A stretch of DNA of 64,000 bases, taken from NCBI GenBank assembly GCA_963774265.1, contig CAVZDU010000001.1:896001-960000 (forward strand), written 5' to 3'. Shown piece by piece: positions 11,928 through 49,477 of the stretch (positions are counted from its first letter, which is position 1; the number at the start of each line of letters is the position of its first letter). This DNA is from an uncultured Chloroflexia bacterium. GTDB taxonomy: Bacteria; Chloroflexota; Anaerolineae; CG2-30-64-16. The notes below the pieces were generated by a model, which was not told the DNA's origin, made no database searches, and worked only from the letters and a program-made list of their open reading frames with translations. A program made the translations under genes and the position numbers.

Positions 11928-12140
11928 TCACTTGAGCAGCGGTATCTCCACCGGATCTTCCTTGGGCTGGCAAATCCCGCAGTAGAGCGCATTGCCCACC
12001 ACCAGCGCCTTCTGAACCCCCTCGTCGTTGCGGTAGAGCGCCTCGATATGCGGCAGGCTGCGAGCATGTTCGCGGCACACTCCCCGACCGCAAAACCGGC
12101 AGGCGCCCTGGGCTGGTCGATCGCAGTGCCAGCAGTTCAT
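11928..12140 (-). CDS. Small Cys/His-rich putative zinc-finger protein
   Basis: CxxC..CxxC..CxxH..CxxC; AGGAGG RBS. Confidence 0.7.
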   Translation of the reverse strand: MNCWHCDRPAQGACRFCGRGVCREHARSLPHIEALYRNDEGVQKALVVGNALYCGICQPKEDPVEIPLLK

Positions 12141-12168: not shown

Positions 12169-15100
12169 CTAGGACCCTAAGTCCAGTATCCGGCGGCTGG
12201 ACTCGCGCTCCAGGCCCTGCGCCACGGCAAATTGTTCCGCCACGAGCCGGTCAAAGTCGACTTTGTCCAACGCCAGAGTGCTGATGTGGGTGAGTGCACG
12301 AGACGGACGCGGTGCGCGGCACCGACAGCAGCAGCGCGATTTCTCCTAAATATTCCCCGGGCCCGCGTTGGGCCACTGTGATCGTCTCACCTGCGCGCTC
12401 GGCCAACACCTCCACCCGTCCGGATTGGATGACGTAGAACGTTTCGCCAACCTCACCCTGGCGCATCAGGTACGCCCCAGCCAGGTAACCCTCTTCGCGC
12501 ATCTGGGCGGCGATATGCTGGATTTGCGAGCCGTCCATCTCTGCGAAGAGCGGGATGCGCCGCAGTAGCTCGGCGCGCGTCACCGACCGGTCCAGTTTGT
12601 CGCGCATGGCGAACCGGTCCTTCACCATGCGTTCGAAATCCCCGCGGCTGAGGCAGAGGAGGGTCGTGGGCACGGTGGCGACACAACTTGCTGTACGTGG
12701 CACGTCGCGCAGCAGGGCGGTTTCGCCGAAATGGCCGCCGCGCCCTAACTGATTGACGACCGCACTGATTCCTCGCTCGTCGCGCTGGCGCACCTCCACG
12801 TGCCCCTGGTGAACGATATAGAAGCGGTCCCCGGCCTCGCCCTGGCGGATGATCGCCTCGCCCGCGGCGTATCGCGTGGGGATGAGGCGCGTGGCTAATG
12901 CCGCGAGTTCGTCTTGATTCATAGTGGCGAGGAGCGGCATGCCGCGCAGGAGGAGAGTGACATCCCGATTGGTCGCGGCGAAGCCCGAGCTGAGCGCTGA
13001 GGCCCGCGGCATGAGCCGGAAGAGATACTGCGTGCCGATCTCCCGCACTTCCCACGGCAGGCCGTCGAACGCGCAGCGCAGCGCGGCGAGGGTAAAGGGC
13101 TCCCCCATCTCGGCCGCGGCCAGATCTAGCAGTGTGCTAAGCGCCGCGGCGTACGCTTCGCCCCGACGGATGAGCGGAAGATCGGGGGGCAGCGCGTCCT
13201 GCAACTGCCCCGCCCCCAGGCTCACCCGCCAGCCCGCTGCCAGGGCATAGCCGTTGAACTGCCCTGCAATCGCAGCCGCGCTGCGACGGCCCGCGATCTC
13301 GATCAGGTGGGCATGTATTCCGCCGGCCGTCGCCGCAAATGCTTGTTGCAGCCGGCGCGCGTCGCCGCTAAGCGCAAGATCGCCCTCCCGACGCGCCAGG
13401 CGGTTTTCGGCCGAGACGGCGTCGGCGGCGACCGCGCGGGTGTATGCCAGGTGGTGCAAGTAAAGCCCCGACGCCAGGAGCAGGTAGGGGAGAGCCGGTG
13501 GCAGGTGCGTGAGCGCAAAAATCGCCAGTCCCGCAAGCGCGGTCGTCACGGCGGTCCAGGCCGGCGCAGCGCGCGTCCTCCAGAACGCGGCGAGCGTGGG
13601 GATCAGCAGCGCCGCGGCCAGCCACGGAAGCTCCACCGCGTTGAACGCCAGGTATGCCGCGGCGTCGCCTCCCTTCCAGCCGGCCTGCACGAGTACGACG
13701 AATAGGCAGTAGCCCACCCCGGCGCCGAGCCCTACGGCCGCCTTTTCGGCCGCGGTCGCTTCCCGCAGGTTGGCGCCGGCAAACAGCAGCGCAGCCCCTA
13801 ACAATAGCCCGGCGCTGCTCAATAGTCCGAAAGCTGTGTGAGGGTTGCGCCATTCGCCGGCGGCGGAAGTGAGGCCAGTGAGCTCGAACAACGCGAGTGC
13901 GAGCGCGGCCGCGGCCCAAACGGTGTAGGCGGCTGCGAAGCGTGAGCCCGCATAGCCGCGGGCGCTTCGCCAGCCGAACCAGGTCGCCGCGATCAGCGCG
14001 GCAACCCCGACCAACTGCGCGACGAGCGGGTAGTCCAGCAACTCCGGCAAGGCCGCCAGAAGGGTGCTCGCGAGGAGGAGCAGTGCGAACACACGCCAGA
14101 GACTGCGGAACAGGCCGCGACGCTGGGCCGCGGCCAACCAGCCTCGGACCAGCCGGTATGGGATCGCGCCAAGGACTGCCACAAATAAGGCGCTGATCAC
14201 GACCCCGAGCAGCCCCAGCGCCCAGCGCCCGGGTCCGGCCCCGCCTTCCCATAGGCTGCGCACGCCTTGTACTAAGCGCGTCTGCCAGAAAACCAGGCCA
14301 GCGTAGACGGCGTAGACCGTCCAGGCTGCTGCCAGCAGGCCAAACACCACGAAAATCTGCTCTTCGGCCGTCAACCTGGCCCGCTGCTGTGGCTGCGCCA
14401 TGCGGGGCAGGCGCATCTCACGTACTTTTGCCGGCAGGCCGATACGCAAGAACTCCATGGATTTGCGTCGCAACTGGGAGATTCCCAGCCAATCCATGAG
14501 CAGGTAGTAACCGTCCAGTTCCAGTAGGGGGTTGAGGTTAATAAAGACCAGGATGTAGCAAGTAAAGGCGAACTTGAAGAGCAGGGGGTTGGGCGGCAGC
14601 ACCGGCCAGGCGACCATAACCAACGTGACCAGTCCGGCCAGGATCAACCCGGAGTATGGGCCAGCCCAGGTGACTGCCAGGCGCGCGCGCTTTCCCTCAA
14701 GCCACATATCGGTTGTGTCCACGAAGAACGCGGGCATACCGAAGTAGATCATCACGCCGGCCCGCCGGACCTCACGGCGGTAGTGCTTGACCGTCAGGGC
14801 ATGTGCCAACTCGTGCAGGAAAACCGCGACGAACTGGGCGGCAATGAGCATGACAAGGCCAAGTCCATATGAACCGGCTTCGCTCACCAGGCTGTATCTA
14901 CCTGATATGAACAGCTTGCCGTATAAGACCAGGCCTACCAGGCTGAGCACCACATAGAGGATCTGTGCCGGCTTGGTGAATAGCAGCCAGCCCGCGGCTT
15001 TATAGAGACGATCCAGCGCGCCGTCCAGTCCGCTGATCGCCAGGGGGGTTTGCAGGAAGGCGTGCCAGAGGCGCCCCAGGCGCACACGCAAGCGGCGTCC

Positions 15101-15508
15101 CTCCAGGCTCTCATGCACTTGCCGGTAGACGCCCACAGGTTTGTCAGTCAGGAATCCGTTGATCCTGAGCCCGGTCACTAGCCCGGCGACGCGGCCGAAC
15201 GCGAAGGAGCCGTATTGGCCAAAATAGGCCACCACCAGATCCTTCACCGTCCGCGTGCCGTCCATTAGCTCCCACAGGAAGGCATCCCGGTCGCTGAGTT
15301 GATAATAGGTTTTCGTCGTAGGGTTTTTGATAACAGTGTAAGGACCGTCCCGACCGTCCAGCCGGCTCGCGATCACGCCAGGCACAGCCTGTGGTCGGAC
15401 CATCGCCACGTCGAACCGCTCCTGCAACCATGCCCACAACCCCGTACGACCCTCATCGGGCCGTCCGGCGTCGAGCCGCAGGTTTTCCCAGAGCGATGTG
15501 GCAGCCAT
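12169..15508 (-). CDS. RRE(PqqD-like)-M50 site-2 protease-membrane region-tandem cNMP-binding domain fusion (frameshift near 12300)
   Basis: N-terminal KNP..YYQL..AFLWELMDGTRTVKDL winged-helix pattern; HELAH and NLNPLLELDG; two CNB domains (FGETALL..PRTAS, LGEIALL..PRTAS); C-terminus continues in another frame to TAG 12169. Confidence 0.85.
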
Positions 15509-15642: not shown

Positions 15643-16596
15643 CTACACCAGCGTGCCCGGCAGCTTGCTCAGAACGATCGCGAGTTGCTGTGCGGAGAGC
15701 TGGGCTAATTGTTGTGCCGAGAGACTGGCGGCTTGTTCAGCCGTCATGGCCGACAATTGCTGGGCCGACATATGGCTGAGCTGCTCGGCGGATAGGGCGA
15801 CCATCTGCTGCGCCGACATGTGACTGAGTTGCTCGGCGGAGAGGCTGGCCATCTGCTGGGCCGACATGTGGCTCAGTTGCTCGGCGGAGAGGGCGGCCAT
15901 CTGCTGGGCCGACATGTGGCTCAGTTGCTCGGCGGAGAGGCTGGCCATCTGCTGGGCCGACATGTGGCTCAGTTGCTCGGCGGAGAGGCTGGCCATCTGC
16001 TGGGCCGACATATGGCTCAGTTGCTCGGCGGAGAGGCTGGCCATCTGCTGGGCCGACATGTGGCTCAGTTGCTCGGCAGAGAGGCTGGCCATCTGCTGGG
16101 CCGACATGTGGTTCAATTGCTCGGCGGAGAGGGCGGCCATCTGCTGGGCCGACATGTGGCTCAGTTGCTCGGCGGAGAGGGCGGCCATCTGCTGCGCCGA
16201 CATGTGGCTCAGTTGCTCGGCAGAGAGGCTGGCCATCTGCTGCGCCGACATGTGACTGAGCTGCTCGGCGGAGAGGCTGGCCATCTGCTGCGCCGATATG
16301 TGGCTGAGCTGCTCGGCCGAGAGGCTAGCCGCTTGCTGGGCTGCCTGGCTGGCAGCGGTGGCTTGGCCGCTCAAAGCTGAGAGGAGGCCGAGCGCGGTGG
16401 CCTTGGAGACGCGCTCGTCCAGGACGCCAGCGAAAGAGTCCATAGTCTCGAAATCGATAGCCTTCAATGCGGCGCTCTCGGACGCAGTCAGATCATAACC
16501 TGTCAACGCCACATCGGGCCGTGCAAACAGCGCATTGCGGAACGCGCTATCGGTCACGGCCCTGCCGATGATCGCCTCCATCGCTTGCTTGGACAT
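15643..16596 (-). CDS. NHLP-clan (Os1348/Franean1_4349-like) leader fused to a tandem 16-aa repeat domain, 317 aa
   Basis: MSKQAMEAIIGRAVTDSAFRNALFARP..L.GYDLT..E..AL..LDERVSK leader pattern; AAGGAG RBS before ATG 16596. Confidence 0.8.
   Translation of the reverse strand: MSKQAMEAIIGRAVTDSAFRNALFARPDVALTGYDLTASESAALKAIDFETMDSFAGVLDERVSKATALGLLSALSGQATAASQAAQQAASLSAEQLSHISAQQMASLSAEQLSHMSAQQMASLSAEQLSHMSAQQMAALSAEQLSHMSAQQMAALSAEQLNHMSAQQMASLSAEQLSHMSAQQMASLSAEQLSHMSAQQMASLSAEQLSHMSAQQMASLSAEQLSHMSAQQMAALSAEQLSHMSAQQMASLSAEQLSHMSAQQMVALSAEQLSHMSAQQLSAMTAEQAASLSAQQLAQLSAQQLAIVLSKLPGTLV
15754..16329 (-). repeat. Coding tandem repeat, 12 x 48 bp (ASLSAEQLSHMSAQQM)
   Basis: Counted directly in DNA and protein; followed by three degenerate 8-aa units. 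Confidence 0.95.
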
Positions 16597-16695
16597 CTTG
16601 GTGCTCCTTTTTGGGCTCGAGGTGTTTATTTGTTCGACTGGCCCCATGTTACGGCAAAAGCTGCGCCCGCGCTGCGATGCGCGCCACACCGGCGG

Positions 16696-16711
16696 AGTGA
16701 TCTACATCACA
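16696..16711. promoter_or_regulatory. CRP-type operator TGTGA-N6-TCACT upstream of the repeat-protein gene
   Basis: Minus strand reads TGTGA TGTAGA TCACT; candidate -10 TAACAT at 16651-16646 without a good -35. Confidence 0.75.
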
Positions 16712-16717: not shown

Positions 16718-17407
16718 TCAATAGTTGATCTTCCGCCACAGCCCGACGCGATCCAGGATCGTGATCTTCTGGCCGACCAACTCGATCAGACCTTGATCCC
16801 GGAAAGTCGAGAGAACCTTGTTGACCGTCTCTCGGGAACTGGCGACCCAACTCGCAAGCTCCGCCTGTGTCAGGCCCAGATCCAGCTCCAGGCCGCTCCC
16901 CCGCGGGGACTGCGCGCCGAAACGGTCAGCCAGCTCCAGGAGTCGCATGGCGACCCGGCCATTGGCGTCAAGAAAGGCCAGGCTCTCAGCGTATGCCGTC
17001 GTGTACCGCAATCGTGCGGCGAGAATCTCGAGGAGCCGCACCGCCAGGCGAGGATGATCCTCCAACTGTTGAAAGAAATCCTCCCGTCGCAGAGCTAAAG
17101 TCTGGGTAGGTTCCACCGCCACTGCACTGGCAGAGCGGGGGCGACCGTCGAGAAAACCCAGTTCGCCGATGACTTCGCCCGGGCCGTAAACGTTCAAGGA
17201 AATCTCCTGGCCGGATTCGCTGAGAATGAAGATGCGCACCCGGCCCGATTCGATGATGTAGAGGGTTTGGCCCGGGCTATCCTTGTGGAAGATGAAAACT
17301 CCCTTGCCGAATACGCGCGTCACCAGGCAAGTCGCAACTTCGGCAAGCTCTGAATCGGACAGGCCGTTAAGGAGCGAGGACTTGCGTAACTTGTCTATTC
17401 CTGGCAT
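16718..17407 (-). CDS. crp: Crp/Fnr-family cAMP-binding transcriptional regulator
   Basis: CNB motif GELGFLDGRPRSASA; HTH LTQAELASWVASSRETVNK. Confidence 0.92.
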   Translation of the reverse strand: MPGIDKLRKSSLLNGLSDSELAEVATCLVTRVFGKGVFIFHKDSPGQTLYIIESGRVRIFILSESGQEISLNVYGPGEVIGELGFLDGRPRSASAVAVEPTQTLALRREDFFQQLEDHPRLAVRLLEILAARLRYTTAYAESLAFLDANGRVAMRLLELADRFGAQSPRGSGLELDLGLTQAELASWVASSRETVNKVLSTFRDQGLIELVGQKITILDRVGLWRKINY

Positions 17408-21025: not shown

Positions 21026-24000
21026 CTACGCTGTTCCCTGGCACCGAGCGAGCGCAGCCACGAGGTCTTCCACCCGGATGGGCTTGGAGAGGTAGTCATC
21101 CATGCCGGCCTCAAGGCACAGCTCCCGGTCGCCCTGCATCGCGTTGGCCGTCATGGCGATGATGCGCGGCCGGGAGTCTGCCGGCCAACGGGCGCAGATT
21201 TTCCGGGTCGCCTCCAGGCCGTCCATCTCGGGCATCTGCACGTCCATCAGGATCACGTCGTACGGCTGGCGCTCCACCGCCTGGATGGCCTCCAGTCCGT
21301 TCGCGGCCACGTCCGCGCGGTAGCCCATCTGCGCAAGTAACCGCAATGCCAGTTTCTGGTTCACTGCGTTGTCCTCGGCCAGCAGGATGCGCAGCGGATG
21401 GCGCGCCGCCATCGCGGGATCAAGCGCGGGCCGGGCTGCAGCGACGGCCGGCGCGGCCTGCGGTCGCGCGGCGAAGATGCCAGCTAGCGCATCGAACAGC
21501 GCCGAGGGCCGGATCGGCTTGGCCAGGCTGGTGGCAAAGAGGCCGGCAGGGAGGTCCTGACCATGACCGCCCAATGACGAGAGCAGGATCAAGGGCAGAC
21601 GAGGGCTGGATTGGAGATTGAAGATTGAAGATTGCTCAGCCGTCGTAGGTGCCCGATCTTCAAGCTTCGATCTTTCATCTTCAATTCGTCGTATGGCCGT
21701 CGCCAACTCCACGCCGGTCATCTCCGGCATGTGCAGGTCCAGGATCGCTACATCGAACGCGTCCCCGTGGCGCAGCCACGTCAGCGCCTCGAGGGGTGAA
21801 CCGGTGGCACACGAGAGCATCCCCCAGCCCTGGGTCTGGAGCGTAAGGATGCGCCGGTTCGTGGCGTTGTCGTCCACGATCAAGACGCGGCGGCCAGCCA
21901 GTTGCAACTGCACGTCGGCCAGGTGGGGCCGCGGATGAAAGTCGGGGGCCGGCCGGGCAGCAATCGTGAAATGAAAGGTCGAACCCTGGCCTGCGCCCGC
22001 GCTCTCCGCCCACATCATGCCGCCCATCATCTCTGCCAGCCGCTTGCTCACCGCCAGCCCGAGACCGGTGCCGCCGTAACGCCGCGTGGTGGAGGCATCC
22101 ACCTGGGAAAACGCCCGGAATAGTCGATCCAGCCGGTCGGCCGGGATGCCGATGCCGGTGTCGCGGATGGCGAAGTGGAGGCTGTACCTCTCCCCCAGGC
22201 CCTCCCCGCGCAGGGGAGGGGTGAGGGGTGGGGTCCGTTCTACGGTCATCACAACCTCGCCCGTTTCGGTGAACTTGATCGCATTGCTCAATAGATTGAC
22301 CAGGATCTGGCGCAGACGGGTGACGTCGCCGACGATGACCGCGGGCACGTCGGCGGCTATCTGGTAGGCCAGCTCCAGCCCCTCCCCCGCGGCCTTGATG
22401 TGCAGCAGGTCCAGCGCCGACTCCACGCATTCGCGCAGGTCGAAGGGCTGCTGCTCCATCTCCATCTTGCCGGCCTCAATCTTCGAGAAATCCAGGATGT
22501 CGTTGATGATGGTCAGGAGCGCGTCGCCGCTAGACCGGATGGTCTCCGCGAAGTCGCGCTGCTCGGCGTTCAGGGGCGTGTCCATCAGCAGACCGCTCAT
22601 GCCGATGATGGCATTCAGCGGCGTGCGGATTTCGTGGCTCATCGTCGCCAGGAACGCGCTCTTGGCCTGCGTCGCCGCTTCGGCGGTGGCCTTCGCCTGT
22701 CGTAGCTCCACCTGCGCCCGTTTCTGCTCCTCCAGGAGTTGGTAATTCTGGACGAGAACGGCTGTCTGGCTGCTGATCGCTTCGGCAAGTTGCGCATCAT
22801 GCCGGCCGATGTCAGCTCCGTCGGATGGTCGTCCCAAGCACACCACCCCCACTGCCTGCTGCTGGGAGTTGCTGATGGGTGCGATCACCAGCTTGCCGAG
22901 AGCTCGCCGCGATTCGCCCCGCATTCCAAACAAGCTCCTCTCGCTGGTCAATGGGTCATTGATGACCAGGTAGCGGCCCTCGAGCACGCACTGCGCTGCC
23001 AGATCGCCGGCAGTGTGGCCGCACACCTCGAACTGCATCAGGTCAGCGGGGAGGCCGGGGAAGTGTCCGGCGATGCCGCGCAAGGCGTCCGGGCCTTCGG
23101 TCACCTGGTTGTCGTCGGATCGGTTCACCAGAGCAACCCACCAGCGATCCATGTCGACCGATTGGAACATGGACAGCAGCGCTTTCCGCCCCATGTCATA
23201 GTCTGCGGATAGCACCCGATAGGGCACGACGGACATATCGGGGAAGCAGGCTGCAATCTCTTCCGAGAAACCTTGAGCGCGTTGGCGAGCGGTGTACAGG
23301 TCTGAGTAGATAACGGCCACGCGCCCCCGGCCGCCCAATCGATGACTCAGGAAACGGGCTGCCAGGCGCCCGCCACCGCGATTGTCGGCGCCTACATGCG
23401 TGGCAACTTCTACCCCTGCCATTGGCTGATCCAGGGACACGACCGGTATGCCCCGTTGCAGCGCGCGCTGCGCTACGGGCGCGAGCGTGTACTCATTCAG
23501 GGGCACCAGGATCAACGCATCGATGCCGGCGGCAAGCATCTCTTTGACGGCAGCCGCCTGCTCCAGGGCCCGCGTCTCGTGATGTCCCGCCAGGATCAGT
23601 TCGACGCCGGCCTCCGCAGCCGCCATCTGCACTCCGTCGCGAATCTCGCGATAGCCGGCATTTGTCTCATAGTCGCCCAACGCCACACCCAGGGTATACC
23701 GCCGGCTCACCGTCGGCATGATGGCCGGGTCAGTTACGATGGGCTGTTCACCGTCGGTTATGAGTTGCACGGGGAGCAGGACCTCGGCTCCCATCGGCAG
23801 ACCCTCCAACGCCTGCAACGCGGCGATGACCCCGCGCCGTCCGAGTTCGCCCAGGTCTTGCCCGATCGTGGCGCACAGCTTTCCGGCGCGCAGCCCGTCC
23901 CGTCCCAGGTCCGACGCGTTGTAGCCTATCGCCCGAAGATCGTCGTGGCCCAGCTCCCGAGCCGTCTCGATCGCAGCCAACGCCATTTCGTCGTTGACCG

Positions 24001-26128
24001 CAAACACCGCCTCAACGCCGGTGCCCACCTCCAGCACGCCGTCGAACAGGCCGCTCAGGGTCTCAGGCAGGTTTTCGCTGAGCTTCCCAAATCGGCTGAC
24101 CCGGTATAACGCAGTGGCCTGGGCAATCTCCCGGTGCAACTCCTCTTCGGCCTGCTTGCGCTCGGTGATGTCGCGGATGATTTCGATCGCGCCGACGGCA
24201 TTGCCCTCAGCGTCGCGCAGGACGGATGCGGTGCCCATCAGATAGTGCGCACTTCCCCGCAAACGCGGCGCGTAGGTTTCGCCGACCAGGACGGAACCAT
24301 GCCGCTGGATCTGGGCGTGTTCTTTGTCCAGATCCTCCTGCGATTTGAACACCAGGTCGATCAGGATCGGCTGTCGCTTGCCGTAGAAGGGGAGGGCGTA
24401 TTCGTAGTCACCCTTGCCCAGTATCTCCTCCGCCGGGATCCCCGTCATCTCTTCAATGGCCCGGTTCCAGGCGATGACGCGGCCTTCCCCGTCAATCACG
24501 ACCGTTGCATCGGGCAGGAAGTTGATGATGTCGGTCAACCGGCGCTGCGTCTCCTGGGCGGTCGAGTAGAGTCGCGCATTGTCCAGGATGACGGAAGCGA
24601 GCTGGGCAAAGCGGCTCAGGAGTTCTGCCTCCTCCGCGCCGAAGCTCCGGCTTGATTCCGCGCCATACGCCAGGCCGATGACGCCCACAACATGCTCGCC
24701 GGAGGTGAAAGGCACGCCCATGATGCCGCGCATCACACCGCGATCGAACGTTGCTAAGCGGCCGGACCAGGCGTCGTAGTCGTCGATGACCACAGGGTGA
24801 CCTGTCTGCCAAACCGTCCCCACCAGGCCATCCCCCGGCTTCCTATATTCGCCGACCAACCGAGCGAGCGCACCGATGCCGACCTTGCACACCATCTCCG
24901 CTTTCCCTGGATCCAACAGATAGAGGAACCCATGCGGCGCATGCAGCAGTTGGCTAGCTCGCGTGATCAGCGTCTCCAGTAGCTCGTTCACGTCCAGCCG
25001 GCTGATCAGCCCCACGGTCGTCTCGTATAAAGCGGCCAGGTACTGATTTTGCCGCACCATCTCTTCCAGGAGTGCGTCCCGTTCGCGGTTGGCCTCTTTC
25101 GCGACGACTTGGGCCTGCTTCTGTTCGGTCATATCGCGCAACAGCAGCAGGTGTCCGACGATCAGCCCGCGATAATCCTTGAGTGGGGAGAGATCCGGAG
25201 CGTAGTACCGGGCGCCGGAACCCCCCAGGCTGATTTCGGTTGGCTCTGCCACCCCCCCGGCAAGCTGTTCGATGAGATCGGGGCATGCCGGCAGGAGATC
25301 CTGCAATGTTTTGCCGCGGGCCCGCGCGGCTGAAGTAGACAACATGCTTGCCGCCGCGGGGTTCAGGTCGGCGATTCGCCACCGGGCATCCAAGATCACC
25401 ATCCCTTCGCGCATCTGCGCGATCACCGTTTTGCGGGCAGCGTGCAACTGGTCGAAGATGCGGAAGCCGAACAGTGCGATGGCATATGATCCGAAGAGGA
25501 GTGCCAATTCGATAATGAGGGGGTCCAGCGCATTTGTAAGTCTCACGTTGACGACGTCCAGCGCGTACACGACCCGGCCCACAATCATCCCGAACACCAT
25601 CAGCGCCACCGGCAGGCGATGCTGCGGCGAGCGGACGAACAGCCAGAGGAAAGCGGCGATATTGACCAGGATGAGGCTCATTCCATAGCCGGTCCCGATT
25701 CGGTTGCCAATGCCGCGTAGCGGTTGGACAGCCCCATCGACCGCGAACCCGAGCCACATGAGGTGATGGAGATCGTTGGTGATGATCAGCAACAGGCCCA
25801 AGAGGGGAGGAATAGACAGCAGGATCAGGTTGCGGCGGGTCAGCCAGCGTCCGGGGTAGGCATACTCCAGAGCAAAACAAGCCCCGGCGGTGACCAAGGG
25901 CAACTGCCACACCCCTTGGAACTTGAACCAGGCGATTCTCGTCGAAACATCGCCTGCCGCCGATTCAGCGACTGCGCCTGCCAGCCACAGAAACGCGAAC
26001 AGGCAGGCGATCGCGACCGGCTTCGCGCCGGGTACGCTGCGGCGCCGCCAAACGTACAAGCCCAAGGTGCCCAGGAATACCAGAACAGCCAGTCTCGGCC
26101 ATGTGTTGGGCATAGCAAAAAGATCCAT
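21026..26128 (-). CDS. Hybrid histidine kinase: 7TM-PAS-GAF-PAS-GAF(with sugar-binding insert)-HisKA-HATPase-REC-REC
   Basis: HisKA_7TM-like N-terminus; [12 protein letters not shown]; [10 protein letters not shown]; GGTGLGL; two REC domains. Confidence 0.92.
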
Positions 26129-26164
26129 CTTGTTGAGCCTTCCACTGGATCGGTTCTTGTTTGG

Positions 26165-29100
26165 TCAACCTGATTGATCAAGACTGGAGGCCATGCTGCG
26201 GCTCAGCGCCGCCACCAGCTCATCCACACGGATCGGTTTGCTCAAGTAGTCGTCCATGCCGGCCGCCAGGCACAGCTCGCGGTCGCCTTGCATCGCGTTG
26301 GCCGTCATGGCGATGATGCGGGGCCGGGCACCCGCCGACCAATGGGCGCAGATCTGTCGGGTCGCCTCCAGGCCATCCATCTCGGGCATCTGCACGTCCA
26401 TCAGCACCACGTCGTATGGTTGGCGCTCTATCGCCTGGATGGCTTCCAGCCCGTTCGCGGCTACGTCCGCGCGGTAGCCCATCTGGGACAAGAGCCGCAG
26501 AGCCAGCTTTTGGTTCACCGCGTTGTCTTCGGCGAGCAGGATGCGCAGTGGATGGCGCGCCGCCATCTCAGGATCGAGCGCGGCCCTGGCCGGAGTGGTC
26601 CGCGCAGGCTGGCGCGACTGAGCAGGCTGTCGCTCAAAGACACCGAGCAGGGCATCAAATAGCGCCGACGGCCTGATTGGCTTGGTCAGGCTGGCTGCGA
26701 ATAGATCCGGGTCGACCCCAGCCTCGCGGCCGCCCAATGACGAGAGGAGGATCAAGGACAGACGAGGACTGGATTTAAGATTTAAGATTGAAGATTGCTC
26801 AGCCGTCGTAGGTGCCCGATCTTCAAGCTTCAATCTTTCATCTTCAATTCGCCGTATGGCCTCGGCCAGTTCCGCCCCCGTCATTTCAGGCATGCGCTGA
26901 TCCAGGATGGCCAGGTCGAAGGGCTCGCCGCCGTCCAGCCAGTCCAGTGCCTCCTTTGGCGAGGCAGTGGCGCGCGAGAGCATCCCCCAACCCTGCGTCT
27001 GAAGGGTCAGAATGCGCCGGTTGGTGGCGTTGTCGTCCACGATCAGCACGCGGCGGCCAGCCAATTGTGGTTGCTCGCCGGTCAGGTGGGGACGGGTCTT
27101 CAACTCAGTGGCTGCCTGCGCAACGATCGTGAAATGGAAGGCGCAACCGGGCCCTCCCTTGGCCTCTTCGTCCAGGAGGAGTGCAGGCGCTGCCGGCGAC
27201 TCGACCCACATCGTGCCACCCATCATCTCGGCCAGCCGCTTGCTGACGGCCAGGCCGAGGCCGGTGCCGCCGTATTTGCGGGTGGTGGACGCGTCCACCT
27301 GGCTGAAGGCCTGGAACAGGCGGTCGAGGCGGTCAGGTGGAACGCCGATGCCGGTGTCGCGGACGGCGAAGTGCAGTGACACGGAGAGGGGGAGACGCAG
27401 CGAAGGGGAGAAGGTTTCCGTTTCCCCCAAGTGCCGGTCACTGTCAGCCGCGTCCGTGTCTCTCGTCACGGTCACCACCACTTCGCCTGTTTCGGTGAAC
27501 TTGACCGCGTTGCTGAGCAGGTTGACCAGGATCTGGCGCAGGCGCGTGACGTCGCCGACGATGGCTGCGGTGTATCGGGGGCCGATCTGGTAGGCCAGGT
27601 CCAGCCCTTTCTCGGCGGCCTTGATGCGCAGCAGGTCCAGCGCCGACTCCACGCACTCGCGCAGGTCGAAGGGCTGTTGCTCCAGCTCCAACTTGCCGGC
27701 CTCGATCTTGGAGAAGTCGAGGATGTCGTTGATGATCGTCAGCAGGGCATCCCCGCTGTTGCGGATCGTCTCGGCGAAGTCGCGCTGCTCGGCGGTGAGG
27801 GGGGTGTCGAGCAGCAGACCGCTCATGCCGATGATGGCGTTCATCGGGGTGCGGATTTCGTGGCTCATCATGGCCAGGAAGGCGCTTTTGGCCTGGGTGG
27901 CGGCCTCTGCGGTCTGACGCGCTTGCTGCAGATCGCTGATGTCATGGTAAATCACCAGGGTGCTGACTTGCTTGCCCTCGATGATCACCGGCACGGCATG
28001 CAGCTCGACATCCACAAAGCTGCCATCCCGACGGTTTCGACGCGCGATGGCGTGGACGACGGCGCCGGCTTCCGCCCTCTGGGAATAGGCGGCGGCCTCT
28101 GCCCGGACGGTATCGGTCGTCACAAGATCATCGACATTATGGCCGATCGCTTCTTCCTGGAGGTACCCAAACAGGCTCTCGGCCGCTGGGTTCCAAGAGA
28201 GGACGTTGGCATTCTGGTCAACCACGACGACGGCCGCGGGGGTGTTCAGAACCAGGGATTCGAAGTACCGCTTCTCTCGCTGCACCTCACCGTACAATCG
28301 AGCGTTTTCCAGTGCGATGGCTGCCTGGTTGGCGATGGCTTCCAGAAGTGCCTGATCCGACGCATCGTAGGCATTCGGGTCCGTGTAGTGCTGCAGGATG
28401 ATCACACCCAGCACACGCTCGCCCGTCTCGTCTAAGTGCCGGGCACTTTCGGAGTCCGACCCCGCAGCTCCAATCACCATGGGCACGCCCAGCCATGACG
28501 CAGCCGGCGGCCCGTAGACCGCAACGCCTGTCATGGCCGTGAGTTCCTCTGCTGACACATTTTGCACGAAGACCGACTTGCCGTGCTTGACGATATAACC
28601 CGCCATGCAACCATCAAGCGGAAGCCGGGTGCCCGGCTGCACCTCGCCCGGGTTGCGGCTGAGGACATACTCAACCTCTTGGCGGCCAGGGTCATAGAGC
28701 GCGATGATCATGTTTTCGGCATACATCACGCGCGCCGTCTGCTCGGCCATGAGCTCGAACAGACCCTGCAAGTCCAGCCTGGACGACAGGGCCTGGCCGA
28801 TGTCGGACAGCAGTCGATAGCGCGTCTCACTCCGCTGTACAGCTTCCTCCGCAACCTTGCGCTCCGTAATGTCGCGGATGATTTCGATCGCGCCCACGTT
28901 GTTGCCCCTGGCGTCGCGCAGAACGGATGCCGTGCCCAGTAGATAGCGTGCGCCCCCCCGGAGATGGGGCACGTAGGTTTCGCCGATCAGAGTGGCGCCA
29001 TGTCGTTGGACCTGAGTATATTTCTGCTCCAGCTCTTCTTCGGGCGTGAACACCAGGTCGATCAAGATCGGTCGTCGCTCGCCGTAGAAGGGGAGCGCGT

Positions 29101-30802
29101 ATTCGTAGTCACCCTTGCCCAAAATCTCCCCCGCTGGGATCCCCGTCATCTCCTCGATGGTCCGGTTCCAGGCAATGACGCGCCCTTCTGCATTGATCAC
29201 CAGCGTCGCATCGGGCAGGAAGTTGATGATGTCGGTTAGCCGGCGCTGCGATTCGATAATGGCGTCTTCGGCACGTTTGAGTTCGCTCAGGTCATGGTAG
29301 ATCGTAAGAATGTAGGGGCTCTGTCCGGCGGCGATGAGCGGGGTGCTGAAAATTTCCACATCGACCAGGCTGCGGTCCTGCCGGCAGCGACGGGTAATCA
29401 CATGGAACCCTATGCCTGAACGTGCAGCTTGGGTCAAGCTATATGCTTCCTCATAGTACTCCGGCATACTCGGGTCAGAGATCAAAGTGTCGAGCTCCTG
29501 CCCCAAAGCGGCCTGGCAGGTGAAACCAAACAGCGTCTCGGCCGCCGGATTCCAGGAGGCCACGCGGCCATCCTGGTCTGTGGTGACGATCGCAACCGGG
29601 CTTGACTGCACCAGCGTTTCGAAGAGTTGCTTTTGGCCCTGCATCTCTGTGAACATGCGCGCGTTCTTGACCGCGGCGCCGATAATGGATGCGAGTGTCT
29701 GTAGCAAATGGATGTCGGAATCCGCAAAGGCGTCTTCTTTCTCATAATCGTCCAGTACGATCAGGCCGGTGGACTGACCAGCGACGATAATCGGCACCCC
29801 GGCAACGGACTTGCTCATCGTCGTGCCGGGCAGTGGCTTCCAACCCAGTTCTGCCCAGCGGCGTTCTGTGTCCCGATTGGCGACGAAAGGCTGCTGGGTC
29901 TTGAGTACATGGGCCGATAGACTGATCGGCTCATGGGGCTCGATGGTCAGCCGCTGTCCGTGATCGTACTCGCACACGTAGTGGAGGAGGTTGGTCGCCG
30001 GATCATAAAGTCGTATGCCGATATCTGCCGTGCCAAAAATCGTACGCAGCTGGTCGGCAGCCAAGTCGATGAGATCCTGGAACTCGAGTTTGGAGACCAG
30101 CCCTTGCTGGACACTGTTGATGATGGCCAGTTCGGCGGTGCGTTCCTGCACCTTCTGTTCCAAGGTTTCGTTGGTTTTCTCCAGCAAAGCCTGCGCCTGG
30201 GCCAGCTCCGCCCGCGAGCGGCGCTCAGTGTCGATCAGCTGCTCCTGGAAGCGTTGGAACAGCGTGAGCAGCACAATGGCGACGGCCAGAAGCATCAGCG
30301 AGGTGCTGCCCTCGATGACCCAATCAGCCAATCGCTGGGAGTTCTGCACGATTACAAGGTAGGGCAGCAGGAGGCCGCGATCGGCAAGAACGGCGAAGAT
30401 CGCCAGGATAAGAACGCTGAGTGCCGACAGGAGGGCGCCAGCACGCGTGCCCACGAGGATTAGCGCTATGATGGGCAGCACGATCAGGTAGTCGCGGCCA
30501 CTGCCGGCCAGGCCGCCGCGCGCCAGGCTTACGATGGCCGCAGCATATCCCAACAGCAGGAGGCCCGACGCACGTATCCGGCTGTCCAGGCTCCGCCAGA
30601 GCGCCAGCACACCCAGGAGCAGCAGCATGACCGTAAAGAGCGCGACAGCAGGCCATTGGTCTGGCTGCCGCGCAGCGGCAAAGAAGGTCATGCCGAGAAT
30701 GGGGATGCACGCGATCGCGGCGATGGCAAGGAAGCCGGTCAGGATTCTTGTGCGCCACTCTGCCAGCATGGACCGGGTTTCGGCGCCATTATTTGGTTTC
30801 AT
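26165..30802 (-). CDS. Hybrid histidine kinase: membrane-GAF-PAS-PAS-GAF-PAS-HisKA-HATPase-REC-REC
   Basis: Hydrophobic N-terminus; WNPAAE PAS motifs; MSHEIRTP; DTGIG; two REC domains. Confidence 0.92.
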
Positions 30803-30815
30803 ATCGCTTCCCCGA

Positions 30816-33800
30816 CTACGCGCGCTCTAGCGCTGCGACGAGCTCGTCCACCCGAATCGGCTTGGCGAGGTAATCGTCCATCCCCGCCTCCAGACATAGC
30901 TCCCGGTCCCCGTGCATGGCGTTCGCCGTCATGGCAACGATGCGAGGGCGTTCGCCGCGCGGCCAGCGAGCACAGATCCGTTGGGTAGCCTCCAGTCCGT
31001 CCATCTCGGGCATCTGCACATCCATAAGCACGACATCGTAGGGCTGACGCTCGATTGCCTGGATGGCCTCTATACCGTTGCCAGCCACGTCCGCGCTGTA
31101 GCCCATCTGCGAGAGCAGGCGCAGCGCCAGCTTCTGGTTCACCGCGTTGTCCTCGGCCAGCAATATGCGCAGCGGATGCTCTGCCGCCAGATTGGCGCCC
31201 GCACGCGGTTGCTCGGCCGGCACGCGCACCGGGCGCTGCGGCTGTTGCGTCAGCACGTTCATCAGCGTGTTGAACAGCGCCGACGGCCGGATTGGCTTAG
31301 CCAGGTAAGCTGTGAACAAGGTCGTGTCACCGACCGCCTCCCGCTCGCCTATGGATGATGCCAGAATCAGAGGCAGCGGAGGCCGAGTTGCAGTTTTTCC
31401 ACCTTCAGCCTGGAGGGCCCGGATTGCGGCCGCCAGCTCGACGCCGGTCAAATCCGGCATCGCCATATCAAGGATGGCTACATCGAAGGTATCCCCGCGG
31501 CGGAGCCACGCCAGCGCCTCGCGCGGTGATCCGGTGTTGCGCGGCGTCATTCCCCAGCCGCGCGCTTGCATGACCAGAATGCGCCGATTGGTGGCGTTGT
31601 CATCCACGATCAGCAGGTGCCTGCCAGCCAGGTCCCGCTGCTCGCAGCGAAGGTGCGGACGAGCCGTCGTCTCAGGTGCAGCCTGCGTCTCGATGACGAA
31701 ACGGAACGTCGAGCCCTCACCGGCGCCCGTGCTCTCGGCCCACATCTTCCCACTCATCATCTCGACCAACCGCTTGCTCACAGCCAGCCCCAGGCCTGTG
31801 CCACCGTATTTGCGCGATGTCGAAGTGTCGACCTGGCTGAACGCCTGGAACAACCGATCCAGCCCATCCTGGGGGATTCCGATGCCGGTGTCGCGCACAC
31901 TAACATGCAGACGAATGCGTTCCGGCGGACAGGGTGCGATCTGGATCTCGTCTGCCGTAGCCTGGTCCAGCATCTCGAAGACTAACACCACCTCTCCTTG
32001 TTCTGTGAACTTGACCGCGTTGCCCAGCAGATTGACCATGATCTGGCGGACCCGGGTGACATCCCCGATGATCGCACCTGGGACCTCGGGCGCGACCTCG
32101 TAGGCCAGCTCCAATCCCTTCTCGGCTGCCTTCACCCGCAAAAGATCCATGGCCGATTCCACGCATTCACGCGGGTCAAAGGGCTGCTCCTCCAGCGCCA
32201 TCTTGCCGGCCTCGATCTTGGAAAAGTCGAGGATGTCGTTGATGATCGTCAGGAGGTTATCGCTGCTGATCCGGATGGTCTCTGCGAAATCGCGCTGTTC
32301 AGTGTCCAGCTCCGTGTTCATTAATAGCCCGCTCATGCCGATGATGGCGTTCATCGGCGTGCGGATCTCATGGCTCATCATAGCCAGAAAGGCGCTCTTG
32401 GCCTGGGTCGCCGCCTCCGCCGCCTCCTTGGCCTGATGCAGCTCGGCGAACAAACGCGCGTTCTCGACCGCCACCGCGGCTTGCCGCGCCAGCCCGACCA
32501 GGAAGTCCAGATCCACCTTGGTGAACAACCCTTTTCGCCGATCCCGGTAGACCGAGAGCAAACCGACGGTCCGTCCCTGAGCGATCAGGGGCGCGATCAT
32601 CAGGGTCTCCGGCGACTCTTCCACTTCCGGCGTGCCTTCGACGTGAACGCCGCGCGGATCAGCATCCGGGTTGTCGATCACCTCGGCGAGGCCGGTCTGG
32701 GCGATGCTGCCGTGGATGCCGCGGTTCAACTCGATCACGTCGGACTTGAACTGCTCCGCATACAGGCCTAACGCCACGGTCGTGTGAAAGGTCTGACCAT
32801 CGGGCGCGGCCAGCCGCAAGATGGTATCCTGTGCGTCGAAGAGTCGGTACACGTGGGCGGCGATGTTGCCGAGCACGGTCTCCAACTGCAACGTCGCCGA
32901 CACCTCGCGGCCCACTTCGGCAATGGCTGCCATCTGGCTGGCACGACGCTGGGTTTCCTGGTAGAGCCGGGCATTCTGGATAGCCGTGCCCACATTGGCC
33001 GCGATGGTGTTCAGCAAGCGAGCGTCCTGGTCGCCGAAGCGGTCCTCATGCTGGGTGCTCTGCACGCTGATGACGCCCAGGGCAAGTTTGCCGACGGTGA
33101 TAGGCACGCCCAGATATGACTTGACTGGCAGACCAACCACAGGTGCACCCAACTCGGCAGAGCGGATCGCCACGTCCCGATTAATGAGCACTGGCTCTCT
33201 TGTACGGATGATGCGCGAGGTGAGCCCCAGCCCGAATGGAATCGGAGCCATCTCTTCGCCGAACGCATAGGGGAAGCGGACGAGGTCTACCTGGGGGTCG
33301 TGGAGTGCGACGTAGACGATGTCCGCCGCGAAGGTTTGGCGCACCTGTTCCCCCACCAGGCGAATCAGGGTGTCCAGCTCCAGCTCGGACGTGAGCGCCT
33401 GGCTGATGCGGTTAACTGTGGACAGCTCCGCGGTGCGCCGCTCACTCTCGGCCAGCAGCCGCCTCGTCTCCTCAAAGAGTCGCGCGTTTTCGATGGCCAC
33501 GCCCATATTTGATGCGAGCGTCGAGAGCAGCCGAACGCTGACCTTGTCGTAGGCGTTTTGGCGGTAGCTCTGCACGCTCGCCACGCCGATGACGTGGGCG
33601 CCGACCACGATCGGCACGCCAAGATAGGATTGGACGATCTCCTCGTCTGGCGCATCCACAAAGTATAGAGCGCCCGCGTCGCGTTGCTCTTTCAACGTAG
33701 CGAGGAGCAGCGGCTCGCGCGTGCGGATAACGATGGAAGTTAGACCCTGGCCCAGCGGGAACGGCGGGCCAATTGGCACATACTCCCGATCGTACTCGTA

Positions 33801-34058
33801 CACGACCCGAAGCAGTGCGCACTCAGCGTCATACAGGATGATGTTCGCGACCTCTGTCTGGAAGATATCGCGAACTTTATCCCCGACGATGCGAACGATG
33901 GTGTCCACGTCGAGTTGGCTCGCCATGGCCTCGCCCACGCTGTTGATGATCGCCAGCTCGGCGCTCCGCCGCGCCAGGTCGTCGTTGGCGGCCTGAAGCT
34001 CGGCTGTGCACTGCTCGATACGGCGTTCCAGCGCCGCGACAACTGCGACGTATTCCAA
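30816..34058 (-). CDS. Cytoplasmic hybrid histidine kinase: 3xGAF-HisKA-HATPase-REC-REC
   Basis: Three GAF repeats ending in (A)I/VENARL or IQNARL; MSHEIRTP; two REC domains; TTG start uncertain. Confidence 0.9.
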
Positions 34059-34097
34059 TGCTTCTAGGTCGCGAAGGAGTCCTTCATCGCATGTCTT

Positions 34098-35361
34098 TCA
34101 GGATGCCCGTATCGCCACTAGTGCCACGTCGTCTGCCTGCACCGCTGTGCCCCGGTGGGCTGCCAGCTCTCGCCAGATTTCGTCACACAGGCGCTGCGCC
34201 GTGCAGCGATGCCCTGCCGCACATGCTGCTGCCTGTAGGCGCTCTATTCCAAACAGGTCTTCGGTAGAATCGGTCATATCCGTCGCGCCGTCTGTGTATA
34301 ACAGGAGGGCGTTGCCTGGCGACAGCGAAACAGTCTGTTCATCCAGGGTGATGTTGTCGAACAGTCCCAACGGTACGCCTTGTCCATGCGCCGCAAGACG
34401 TGCGCTGCCGTCCGCTTCCAGTAGTAGGGGTAGTTCGTGTCCGGCGCGTGCGTAGGCAAAGGTGTGCTGTTGTGAGTCGAGGACACCATAGAGCAGTGTG
34501 ACAAACATCCCCTCATCGTTCATGTCCAGGAGCAAGCGATTAACACGCTCCAGAACCTGGCGCGGCGATGCGGCGCGCGGCCATGCGGCGCGTGTCGCTT
34601 CCGCGCGCAACAGGCTGCGCGTCAATGCCATAAAGATCGCGGCCGGCACACCTTTGTCCGAGACATCCCCGACCGCAACGCCCAGCTTGCCTTTGCCCAG
34701 CGAAATGAAGTCGTACAGGTCACCCCCGACCGCCCGGGCAGGGATGAAGCACGCCCCAAAGTCGTATCCGGGTAGGCGTGGGAGCTCGGTAGGGAGGATG
34801 CTCTGCTGAATGCGCTGGGCCGTGCGCAGTTCCTGCTCCAGCCGCTCTTTTACGATCAGCTGCGCTTGTGCAGCTTTCAAGTCTGAATACGCCTGACTCA
34901 GCTCTTGATTCTTGGCGCGGCAGATCAACAATCGTGGCGTTTAGGGAATCGCGGAGGCGAAGGCTGAGCACTCGCATCATCTCCAGCGCGAGCGTGGGGC
35001 GCTTTTGGAGGAGGCGGTCGAAGTCAGCCCGGCTGAGGGAGAGGAGCCGTACCGGCGATCTGGTGCGTACGGTGGCGGTCCGCAGGCCATCAGGGTCGAG
35101 CAAGCCCATTTCGCCGAAAAACTCCCCCGGCCCCCGCACTGCGATAAGGAAATCTCGCCCGCTCTCGAGCGCTTTACCAACTTCTACCTGACCTTCTACA
35201 ACCACGTAGAAGCGGTCACCTGCCTCGCCCTCCGAAAAGAGTGTATGCCCGGCCGGAAAAACGTTGTCCTCCAGCACTTCCGCGAGGTAGCTTGCCTCAG
35301 CAACCCCAATCTCGGTGAAGATCGGGATGCTTTCGAGGTGAGTCAAGGTGTCGGCGTGCAT
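34098..35361 (-). CDS. cNMP-binding domain + SpoIIE/PP2C phosphatase (frameshift near 34920)
   Basis: FFGEMGLL..LRTAT CNB; VGGDLYD, GDVSDKG, YTDG and DDVAL PP2C motifs. Confidence 0.85.
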
Positions 35362-35456
35362 TGCCGTGCCCCCTGCACTGATCCGGGTAGCCCGATGCGG
35401 ACCACCCGATGCGGGTATAGCGATCGGTGATATGAAGTTGACGTACGCTGCGAGAA

Positions 35457-48026: not shown

Positions 48027-48055
48027 TCGGCTTTCACCTTGTGGAGTGAGAAGGC

Positions 48056-49464: not shown

Positions 49465-49477
49465 AGGTGTGACCGCG

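What the first reader, a model, noticed from the sequence alone, without database searches (positions are those of the whole stretch)
12169..15508. RRE + M50 protease + extra membrane domain + tandem cNMP-binding domains in one protein
Seen: a PqqD-like N-terminus (about 15385-15150), intact HELAH and NLNPLLELDG zinc motifs, a further multi-TM region and two complete CNB domains with GE..R[TS]A phosphate-binding cassettes. The gene lies immediately downstream of the leader-bearing gene. Established: RRE-fused M50 proteases occur in peptide maturation and export loci. Inference: this is an intramembrane protease whose substrate selection is leader-dependent and whose activity is cyclic-nucleotide-gated.
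Basis: partly seen in the sequence, partly recalled or inferred. Interest (0 to 1): 0.75.

Follow-up and report, generated by a model that had tools for sequence, protein, structure and literature searches.

The report
cAMP-wired peptide-leader membrane protease
A membrane protease from Chloroflexota bacteria carries a peptide-docking domain and two cyclic-nucleotide sensors and sits behind a precursor gene with CRP-type promoter boxes, which suggests that one second messenger controls both making and cutting a peptide.

Summary
The architecture is real and conserved: RRE, M50 zinc protease, a family-specific 7TM bundle, helical linker and two cNMP-binding (CNB) domains. One correction: the second CNB is broken by an extra base near 12301, most likely an assembly error. 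HExxH is kept in 96 of 97 aligned homologues; both phosphate-binding cassettes in 90 and 96 of 97. One clade of 30 lacks CNBs and instead has Thr-motif repeats, 28 of them beside a tandem-FHA gene, so the regulatory input looks swappable. Leader binding got only weak model support (0.42 against 0.00). Best reading: a cAMP-coupled leader peptidase in a feed-forward loop. Cleavage, cNMP binding and gating are inferred, not shown. It works like daptide MpaP but fails daptide and epipeptide membership; no modifying enzyme was found in this window. Verdict: new variant of a known kind.

The parts
12169..15508 (-). RRE-M50-7TM-linker-CNB-CNB protein (read through one frameshift; about 1110 aa in intact homologues)
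15404..15508 (-). N-terminal extension with two Trp-bearing helices; expanded into Thr-motif repeats in the FHA clade
15134..15403 (-). RRE (PqqD-like; three strands, three helices)
   Evidence: Pfam PqqD E 0.002, below cut-off; model; relatives above cut-off
14246..14974 (-). M50/site-2 protease domain; HELAH 14815-14801, NLNPLLELDG 14539-14510
   Evidence: NF041824 E 1e-41, below cut-off; HExxH 96/97 and Asp 97/97 in A1
13427..14044 (-). 7-helix membrane bundle, no Pfam family, seen only within this protein family
   Evidence: (Z 10.3, rmsd 4.2, 175 aligned to a designed GPCR-like fold), 65/69, 97
12959..13426 (-). Cytoplasmic helical linker domain with a conserved YDxLPWEERE-like motif
   Evidence: no Pfam hit
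12614..12952 (-). CNB-A; phosphate-binding cassette 12727-12689
12169..12568 (-). CNB-B; cassette 12346-12308; frameshift at about 12301
15643..16596 (-). Precursor: Os1348/Franean1_4349 (NHLP-clan) leader, residues 1-66 ending LDERVSK, plus a 251-aa tail with a 16-aa tandem repeat (12.2 copies, 15758-16341; ALTTAQ-repeat-like)
   Evidence: PF14407 52.4 bits > 48, PF20080 52.7 > 26.4; NF038399 71.1 > 40
16696..16711 (-). CRP-type box A (TGTGA-N6-TCACT)
16673..16688 (-). CRP-type box B, 21 nt before the -10-like hexamer (class II position, centre about -41.5)
   Evidence: the class II geometry is recalled knowledge
16646..16651 (-). -10-like hexamer TAACAT
   Evidence: the consensus scan found no full sigma-70 promoter
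16718..17407 (-). CRP-family regulator with an intact cassette (GE..R) and an SRE recognition helix
17443..20634 (-). Receiver-class III cyclase-HD protein (ORF from 20976; likely ATG 20634)
11928..12140 (-). 70-aa Cys/His protein (DUF2180-like; C4, C16, C19, C24, C57 invariant), probable zinc-binding partner
21026..35789 (-). Upstream signalling block: STAS, split CNB-SpoIIE, three hybrid histidine kinases (context; the link to the module is inferred)

Best explanation
A cAMP-coupled leader peptidase. (1) Inferred: signals through the upstream kinases and the receiver-cyclase-HD protein set the cNMP level, most likely cAMP. (2) Sequence shown, function inferred: CRP binds tandem boxes and activates transcription of precursor, protease and Cys/His protein from a class II-type promoter. 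(3) Inferred, weakly modelled: the folded LigA-like leader docks on the cytoplasmic RRE-M50 unit, probably with the Cys/His protein as an accessory subunit. (4) Inferred from intact motifs and MpaP/YydH precedent: the zinc site cuts at or just after the conserved LDERxSK end of the leader and frees the variable tail. Here the tail is an unmodified repeat polypeptide; in other loci it is a short peptide, sometimes beside ATP-grasp, YcaO or radical SAM genes. It is probably a signal. (5) Inferred: nucleotide binding to the tandem CNBs switches proteolysis (direction unknown), so one messenger controls both synthesis and processing. The 7TM bundle is an optional, probably sensory, insert.
For: Catalytic motif intact in 82 of 82 locus/window copies and 96 of 97 A1 rows; GE-x8-R cassettes in 90 and 96 of 97. 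A 14-helix topology puts RRE, active site and CNBs on one side: K+R averages 0.9-4.4 in the six expected inside loops and 0.2-0.9 in six of seven outside loops (helix limits set by me). CRP-type box with <=1 mismatch within 250 nt of the leader ATG in 8 of 10 crp-adjacent loci, against 1 of 16 other leader loci (L019, which also has crp) and 0.4% of 3000 random windows. The box+7+box+21+TAnnnT pattern occurs 10 times in 2.32 Mb scanned, 9 of them between crp and the leader gene. A 12-locus group with Arg-less cassettes has no leader, no Cys/His gene and no crp nearby, against 16, 25 and 10 of the other 31 CNB-type loci. FHA clade: 28 genes beside a tandem-FHA gene, none with CNB, 24 with two or more [DENK]ET[ILVM] motifs, against 0 of 44 CNB-type genes. 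Relatives sit in RiPP-like clusters with ATP-grasp, YcaO or radical SAM genes. Co-folding of residues 20-425 with the leader: weak support, 0.42 vs best of three controls 0.00, contacts agree >=69%, partner pLDDT >=59. That mark was reached by 116 of 157 solved and 2 of 215 mismatched pairs, but at <=0.60 by only 18 of those 157 and by both mismatches. The pass may reflect likeness to solved RRE-leader complexes.
Against: No biochemistry. L007 and L026 keep crp, boxes and leaders but encode RRE-M50 without 7TM or CNBs, so the CNBs are dispensable for the core job. 52 of 79 loci show no leader gene in the fetched DNA, including 22 of 30 in the FHA clade (many contigs are short). Many tails are tiny: 15 of 37 are 7 residues or fewer. 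The FHA swap and the degenerate-cassette loss are each essentially one clade, so single events. A cyclase was detected in only 3 of 31 CNB-type loci. The CRP box alone is not significant in the window (3 matches vs 1.42 expected; 18 of 100 shuffles reach it), and the composite pattern was derived from the loci it finds. 10 of 71 long distant representatives have lost the catalytic motif while keeping CNBs. Leader divergence tracks M50 as well as it tracks the RRE.
Confidence: 0.5

Rival explanations
1. The protease is a constitutive leader peptidase. The 7TM-linker-CNB half is a separate fused module (receptor, scaffold or export aid) whose nucleotide binding controls localisation, partner binding or release, not catalysis. 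cAMP control of the pathway is mainly transcriptional.
For: CNB-less L007 and L026 keep the CRP promoter and leaders. 10 of 71 long representatives keep CNBs but lack the catalytic motif. pTM of the full model is only 0.64, so packing of the CNBs on the protease is not established.
Against: Short forms join the CNB pair almost directly to M50 with no 7TM (tails of 322-343 aa). The 7TM-linker region was found only in this family. The FHA clade puts its motifs right next to the RRE.
Confidence: 0.22
2. Regulated intramembrane proteolysis of another target, such as a membrane anti-sigma factor. The leader protein is an RRE ligand that activates or inhibits the protease, not the source of a product.
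For: 22 of 30 FHA-clade loci have no leader nearby yet keep the Cys/His gene (26 of 30). An ECF sigma gene lies beside the protease in L028, L056 and L066 (Pfam) and L064 (same cluster). Many tails are 2-7 residues. STAS and SpoIIE genes are upstream in the window.
Against: Leaders end at one conserved motif followed by freely varying tails, the usual precursor layout. Relatives co-occur with RiPP maturases. Close orthologues of this precursor conserve both tail ends while the repeat number varies.
Confidence: 0.2
3. This particular copy is a pseudogene or encodes a truncated CNB-B.
For: Frameshift at about 12301.
Against: The downstream frame is still 43 codons of conserved sequence matching P0003. 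Other genes in the window are split as well.
Confidence: 0.05
4. A Pycsar/CBASS-like antiphage system: a cyclase plus a nucleotide-activated membrane effector.
For: A cyclase and a CNB-bearing membrane protein are neighbours; PADLOC gives PycTIR/PycC hits.
Against: Those hits cover only the CNB or cyclase stretches (about 100-170 aa) and the ordinary CRP gets the same ones. The context is CRP-regulated signalling, and the cyclase is not a conserved neighbour.
Confidence: 0.03

Closest known systems
Daptide MpaP/DapP (NCBIfam NF041824; Ren et al. 2023, PMC10036551, passages read)
   Same: RRE fused N-terminally to an intramembrane site-2 protease that, per the paper, removes the leader; best family hit (E 1e-41 over residues 60-412).
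   Different: 143 bits against a cut-off of 300; adds 7TM, linker and two CNBs; precursor is a folded NHLP-clan leader, not ELExMEAP with a C-terminal Thr; no MpaB/C/D/M; linked to crp and a Cys/His gene.
Epipeptide YydH/LiaK (NF058609; PMC7026026, passages read)
   Same: Membrane HExxH protease presumed to process and release a ribosomal peptide with signalling effects.
   Different: 46.9 bits against 225; the 246-position model covers only the protease core; no radical SAM epimerase in the window.
Os1348 / Franean1_4349 precursors (NF038399, PF14407, PDB 6lk7; PMC7726476 abstract only; PMC12353581 and PMC8939145 passages)
   Same: Same LigA-like leader, above both cut-offs; 6lk7 is the best PDB hit (E 7.5e-10).
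   Different: Here no modifying enzyme was found and the tail is a 251-aa repeat. A Pfam remark linking this family to cyclases in Chloroflexi (Iyer et al. 2009) is recalled; the paper was not held.
Signalling PrsW peptidases fused to cNMP-binding, FHA, PilZ or Zn-ribbon domains (Zhang et al. 2012, PMC3482391, one passage read)
   Same: Same design: a membrane metallopeptidase with exchangeable cytoplasmic sensor domains.
   Different: A different peptidase family; no RRE and no precursor described in that passage.
CRP-linked peptide-processing systems of actinobacteria (Kaur et al. 2020, PMC7159879, section 24 read)
   Same: A metallopeptidase plus a fast-diverging precursor, sometimes beside a CRP-like gene.
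   Different: Zincin-like peptidase, FxSxx-type precursors and AP-ATPase effectors; no M50, RRE or fused CNBs mentioned (0 hits for M50, site-2, PqqD).
Tandem CNB regulatory modules of PKA-R and PKG
   Same: Top Foldseek matches for the CNB pair (E about 1e-14), with both cassettes intact.
   Different: Attached to a bacterial membrane protease, not a kinase; no inhibitory sequence was tested for.

Membership tests
M50 / site-2 proteases | HExxH in a membrane helix | tested here: met
   HELAH in helix 214-242; 96 of 97 in A1
M50 / site-2 proteases | Third zinc ligand in NxxPxxxxDG | tested here: met
   NLNPLLELDG; Asp332 in 97 of 97
M50 / site-2 proteases | Pfam PF02163 gathering score | tested here: inconclusive
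   15 bits < 27.2 for the window; relatives L041 and L020 pass; no PDB sequence hit for residues 1-425
M50 / site-2 proteases | Proteolytic activity | not testable with these tools
   needs an assay
RRE / PqqD | Three strands plus three helices; PqqD profile match | tested here: met
   Model elements E46-72, H73-116; PF05402 E 0.002, below cut-off, here but above cut-off in L028, L020, L041
RRE / PqqD | Binds the cognate leader | tested here: inconclusive
   Weak co-folding pass, 0.42 vs 0.00, no interface given
Daptide MpaP | NF041824 cut-off 300 | tested here: not met
   143.1 bits
Daptide MpaP | Precursor with ELExMEAP and C-terminal Thr; decarboxylase, aminotransferase and methyltransferase genes | tested here: not met
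   Precursor is PF14407 and ends in Val; no such genes among the window proteins scanned
Epipeptide YydH/LiaK | NF058609 cut-off 225 and an adjacent radical SAM epimerase | tested here: not met
   46.9 bits; no radical SAM hit
cNMP-binding domains | PF00027 fold with GE..R phosphate-binding cassette | tested here: met
   133.7 bits; Z 19.6, rmsd 1.9, 140 aligned to 2pqq; 90 and 96 of 97; CNB-B is frameshifted after the cassette
cNMP-binding domains | Binds cAMP or cGMP and changes activity | not testable with these tools
   needs binding and cleavage assays
Os1348/Franean1_4349 precursor (NHLP clan) | Leader profile above cut-off | tested here: met
   PF14407 52.4 > 48; NF038399 71.1 > 40
RiPP cluster (graspetide, YcaO or radical SAM type) | Modifying enzyme in the locus | tested here: not met
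   None among about 30 window genes scanned (genes at 48-56 kb read by eye only); present in relatives L011, L024, L030, L037, L040
CRP class II promoter | TGTGA-N6-TCACA box centred about 41.5 nt upstream of the start | tested here: met
   Box B is 21 nt before TAnnnT in 9 crp-leader loci including the window; start site not mapped; geometry recalled
Microbial rhodopsin (for the 7TM bundle) | Conserved retinal-binding Lys in helix 7 | tested here: not met
   No Lys in the window helix nor among the three commonest residues of any column 672-693
GPCR-like / bacterial 7TM sensors | 7TM fold homology | tested here: inconclusive
   Best Z 10.3, below the ~13 needed for helical bundles; Foldseek best E 0.11
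Pycsar | Full-length PycC plus PycTM/PycTIR two-gene system | tested here: not met
   Only CNB or cyclase stretches match, and CRP matches likewise

The most novel reading that the evidence does not exclude
A widespread, undescribed Chloroflexota signalling cassette in which an RRE-M50 protease and a small zinc-binding subunit release polymorphic peptide or protein tails under an exchangeable intracellular switch: cAMP through fused PKA-like tandem CNBs plus CRP-driven transcription (an AND gate), or Ser/Thr phosphorylation through Thr repeats and a tandem-FHA adaptor. The 7TM bundle would add an extracellular input. I know of no site-2 protease shown to be gated directly by a cyclic mononucleotide (from recall and the searches listed).
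Probability: 0.35. Interest if true: 0.85.

Novelty: new variant of a known kind. Interest (0 to 1): 0.66.

Why it matters
If true, it gives a site-2 protease whose catalysis is controlled by cAMP, and a RiPP-type leader peptidase used as a signalling output, not only a housekeeping maturation step. It assigns candidate functions to three orphans: a DUF2180-like Cys/His protein, the Franean1_4349/Os1348 leader in Chloroflexota, and CRP boxes in Anaerolineae. It also offers a natural comparison of two inputs (cNMP and phospho-Thr/FHA) on one protease core. Every step can be tested in E. coli with three or four genes.

Tried and rejected
Sequence search of PDB with the RRE-M50 half found no relative. 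Fold searches with the full model returned only CNB structures, so the M50 and RRE folds were not tested structurally. The Atlas search on residues 425-850 gave no usable hit. The 7TM bundle gave only generic 7TM matches; rhodopsin was rejected for lack of the Lys. A distance-matrix test of leader-RRE co-variation was uninformative: r 0.57 with RRE and 0.56 with M50, partial 0.28 and 0.23, 26 pairs, and the permutation ignores kinship. The consensus promoter scan found no sigma-70 site and no terminator above chance. The True/False cassette flags printed used a wrong spacing and were replaced. The precursor search found only 3 hits near full length and 6 longer-than-leader hits, so tail diversity rests on the 79 loci. 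Plasmids hold only distant partial M50 matches (52 records, all under 60% identity). Defence reading rejected. Paper searches that found no description of this architecture: 0 papers; listings; nothing on this system by title or in the passages opened; two gave the background papers. Kloosterman 2020 (PMC7470986) and Haft 2010 (PMC2887384) were searched by term in the main text only: no M50 or Chloroflexi mention. No supplements were read. Iyer et al. 2009 was not held and may already link this leader family to cyclases and peptidases. Metagenome and viral contig collections stayed unchecked.
Full report
Observation. The minus-strand gene starts at ATG 15508 and reads 1085 codons to a stop at 12251. 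Pfam finds two cNMP-binding domains (E 2e-39) and, below their cut-offs, PqqD (E 0.002) and Peptidase_M50 (E 0.015). NCBIfam's best hit is the daptide intramembrane metalloprotease (E 1e-41; 143 bits, cut-off 300). One correction: the frame breaks right after the second cassette, at about 12301, and 43 more codons follow in another frame to the stop at 12169. They match the end of homologue P0003. The CNB-SpoIIE and PLD genes in the window are also split, so I read the break as an assembly indel.

Family. The protein search gave 669 hits among 8000 candidates scored; named ones are Anaerolineae/Chloroflexi. I aligned the window protein with 96 of the 120 listed hits, leaving out the self-hit, fragments and some near-duplicates (A1). 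HExxH is present in 96 of 97 rows, Asp332 in 97, cassette A in 90 and cassette B in 96. The AlphaFold model (pLDDT 84, pTM 0.64) shows an RRE-type three-strand, three-helix unit, the M50 helices, a further membrane block and two CNBs. Their best structural matches are PKA/PKG regulatory domains. I count 14 membrane helices; loop charges fit N- and C-termini both inside, with one exception. Residues 489-694 model as a 7-helix bundle (pLDDT 91) with only generic GPCR-like matches (Z 10.3, rmsd 4.2 A, 175 aligned), no retinal Lys and no Pfam family. A profile of this region plus the linker hit 272 of 1.84 billion representatives. Of the 74 newly listed ones of 950 aa or more, 70 are RRE-M50-CNB-CNB; of 71 with an aligned M50 domain, 10 lack the catalytic motif.

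Neighbourhood in the window. Upstream on the same strand lie STAS, a split CNB-SpoIIE, three hybrid kinases, a receiver-cyclase-HD protein, a CRP and the precursor. The cyclase has the motifs FADISGFT, FAGDAI, MGDKGS and NLAARL; reading these as an active ATP-specific enzyme is recalled knowledge. The precursor has an Os1348/Franean1_4349 leader above both cut-offs and a 251-aa tail with 12.2 copies of a 16-aa unit. Five close orthologues keep both ends of the tail with fewer repeats. Downstream, 28 nt after the read-through stop, is a 70-aa Cys/His protein, DUF2180-like in the Atlas (28% of one cluster). No RiPP-modifying enzyme appeared among the window genes scanned.

Related loci. All 82 protease copies (81 in loci plus the window) keep HExxH and the Asp. 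The Cys/His gene is in 53 of 79 loci and a leader gene in 27. Leaders end in LDERxSK and continue into unrelated tails of 2 to 309 residues, often repeats. Some loci add an M16 peptidase with intact HxxEH (7 of 8 checked), or ATP-grasp, YcaO or radical SAM genes. Four groups emerge. CNB-type, 31 loci with the window: crp 10, leader 16, Cys/His 25, cyclase 3. Degenerate cassettes, 12 loci: none of these neighbours. FHA type, 30 loci: leader 8, Cys/His 26, crp 0. Plain RRE-M50, 7 loci: crp 2, leader 4, Cys/His 3.

CRP boxes. The 120 nt before the precursor hold TGTGA-N6-TCACT (16711-16696), a weaker second box (16688-16673) and TAACAT (16651-16646). In the window alone the box is not above chance. 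Across loci, a box with at most one mismatch lies within 250 nt of the leader ATG in 8 of 10 crp-adjacent loci. L002 has it further up, before an inserted small ORF, and L008 has a variant. It is in 1 of 16 other leader loci (L019, also with crp) and in 0.4% of 3000 random windows. The spacing box+7+box+21+TAnnnT is exact. It occurs 10 times in 2.32 Mb, 9 times between crp and the leader gene and once before a STAS-like gene. The pattern was drawn from these loci, so its absence elsewhere is the independent part. Box B falls at the class II position (recalled geometry).

Input swap. Of 81 protease genes scored, 28 have a tandem-FHA gene within 4 kb. None of these has CNBs; all have at least one and 24 have two or more N-terminal [DENK]ET[ILVM] motifs, mostly with a hydrophobic residue at T+3 (the FHA preference is recalled). 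None of 44 CNB-type genes has two. With L033 and L075 they form one clade of 30 (support 97/92, midpoint root). This is one event, not many, but it suggests that the CNB pair is a regulatory input to the protease unit. Against a need for CNBs, L007 and L026 keep crp, boxes and leaders with plain RRE-M50.

Leader binding. Co-folding residues 20-425 with the leader gave weak support: 0.42 against a best control of 0.00, contacts agreeing at 69% or more, partner pLDDT 59 or more. That mark was reached by 116 of 157 solved and 2 of 215 mismatched pairs, but at 0.60 or under by only 18 of the 157 and by both mismatches. No interface was given, and the pass may come from likeness to solved RRE-leader complexes. 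A distance-matrix test showed no RRE-specific signal.

Mechanism. Most likely cNMP, probably cAMP, activates CRP, which transcribes precursor, protease and Cys/His protein. The RRE-M50 unit binds the leader and cuts at its conserved end. The same nucleotide, bound to the CNB pair, tunes the cut. Shown: the parts, their conservation and their linkage. Inferred: binding, cleavage, gating and its direction, export of the tail and the tail's role. My odds: active protease about 0.9, leader as substrate about 0.7, cNMP binding about 0.8, whole model 0.5. Rivals: constitutive protease with an independent sensor half (0.22), another substrate with the leader as ligand (0.2), pseudogene (0.05), defence (0.03).

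Comparison and novelty. It works like daptide MpaP, an RRE-fused site-2 protease said to remove the leader (PMC10036551, passages), and like YydH (PMC7026026, passages), but fails both membership tests. The leader family is known (PMC8939145 and PMC12353581, passages; PMC7726476, abstract). Peptidases with cNMP or FHA sensors have precedent in the PrsW family (PMC3482391, one passage), and CRP-linked peptide systems in actinobacteria (PMC7159879, section 24). Searches found no paper on this architecture, promoter or FHA swap. The library lacks most subscription papers, I read no supplements, and Iyer et al. 2009, which I recall linking this leader to cyclases in Chloroflexi, was not held. Verdict: real, conserved, a new variant of a known kind; interest 0.66.

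Noticed in passing
window 16711-16646: Tandem CRP-type boxes and a -10-like hexamer with exact spacing conserved in 9 crp-leader loci.
   Followed up: yes
window 12140-11928: 70-aa Cys/His protein, the most constant neighbour of the protease (53 of 79 loci), upstream or downstream of it.
   Followed up: partly
L041 8850-11248 and 29 other loci: Clade of CNB-less RRE-M50 proteases with N-terminal ET-motif repeats, 28 of them beside a tandem-FHA gene; L075 also has kinase-FHA and FHA-GAF-cyclase genes.
   Followed up: partly
L060, L061, L062, L069-L072, L076-L079, L015: Long forms whose CNB cassettes lack the Arg (L062 is cut by the contig end) and that have no leader, Cys/His gene or crp nearby; the protease motif is intact, so ligand and substrate may differ.
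   Followed up: partly
L001 1771-3042, L002, L003, L006, L021, L056, L064: An M16 peptidase with intact HxxEH lies next to the leader gene; absent from the window. It may trim or degrade the leader or tail.
   Followed up: partly
L030 1054-5459, L040 12587-16980 (-), L045: M23 peptidase, Cys/His protein, leader with a short acidic core, ATP-grasp and RRE-M50-CNB-CNB: a candidate cNMP-linked graspetide cluster.
   Followed up: partly
L011, L024, L037, L040 8064-9902: Plain or CNB-type RRE-M50 beside radical SAM/SPASM, B12 radical SAM or YcaO genes with Cys-rich or short cores: uncharacterised RiPP clusters.
   Followed up: no
L004 489-1283, L006 7321-8442, L019 13578-14372, L002 7559-8071: Precursor tails made of unrelated tandem repeats; that of L004 contains a repeated GG-EELT unit that recalls double-glycine leaders.
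   Followed up: no
window 20634-17443: Receiver-cyclase protein ending in an HD domain (YHSLAH..YHD..DADL) that recalls cNMP phosphodiesterases: a possible make-and-break enzyme.
   Followed up: no
window 35789-34098: STAS plus a frameshift-split CNB-SpoIIE; CNB-SpoIIE fusions also flank L005 and L006, and L007 has the CRP-box pattern before its STAS-like gene.
   Followed up: partly
L028 11040-11591, L056, L064, L066: ECF sigma factor gene between the protease and the leader gene in one FHA subclade.
   Followed up: no
proteins P0195, P0197, P0209, P0211, P0214, P0215, P0227, P0235, P0261, P0267: Full-length relatives with a degenerate zinc motif but retained CNBs: candidate pseudo-proteases.
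   Followed up: no
window 60346-60361: Another near-consensus CRP box between the divergent CBS-domain gene and the metallophosphoesterase gene.
   Followed up: no
window 48000-56000 and 61500-64000: Many short or shifted ORFs in housekeeping-like genes (read by eye), consistent with an error-prone assembly; IS-type DDE transposase at 44675-46135.
   Followed up: no
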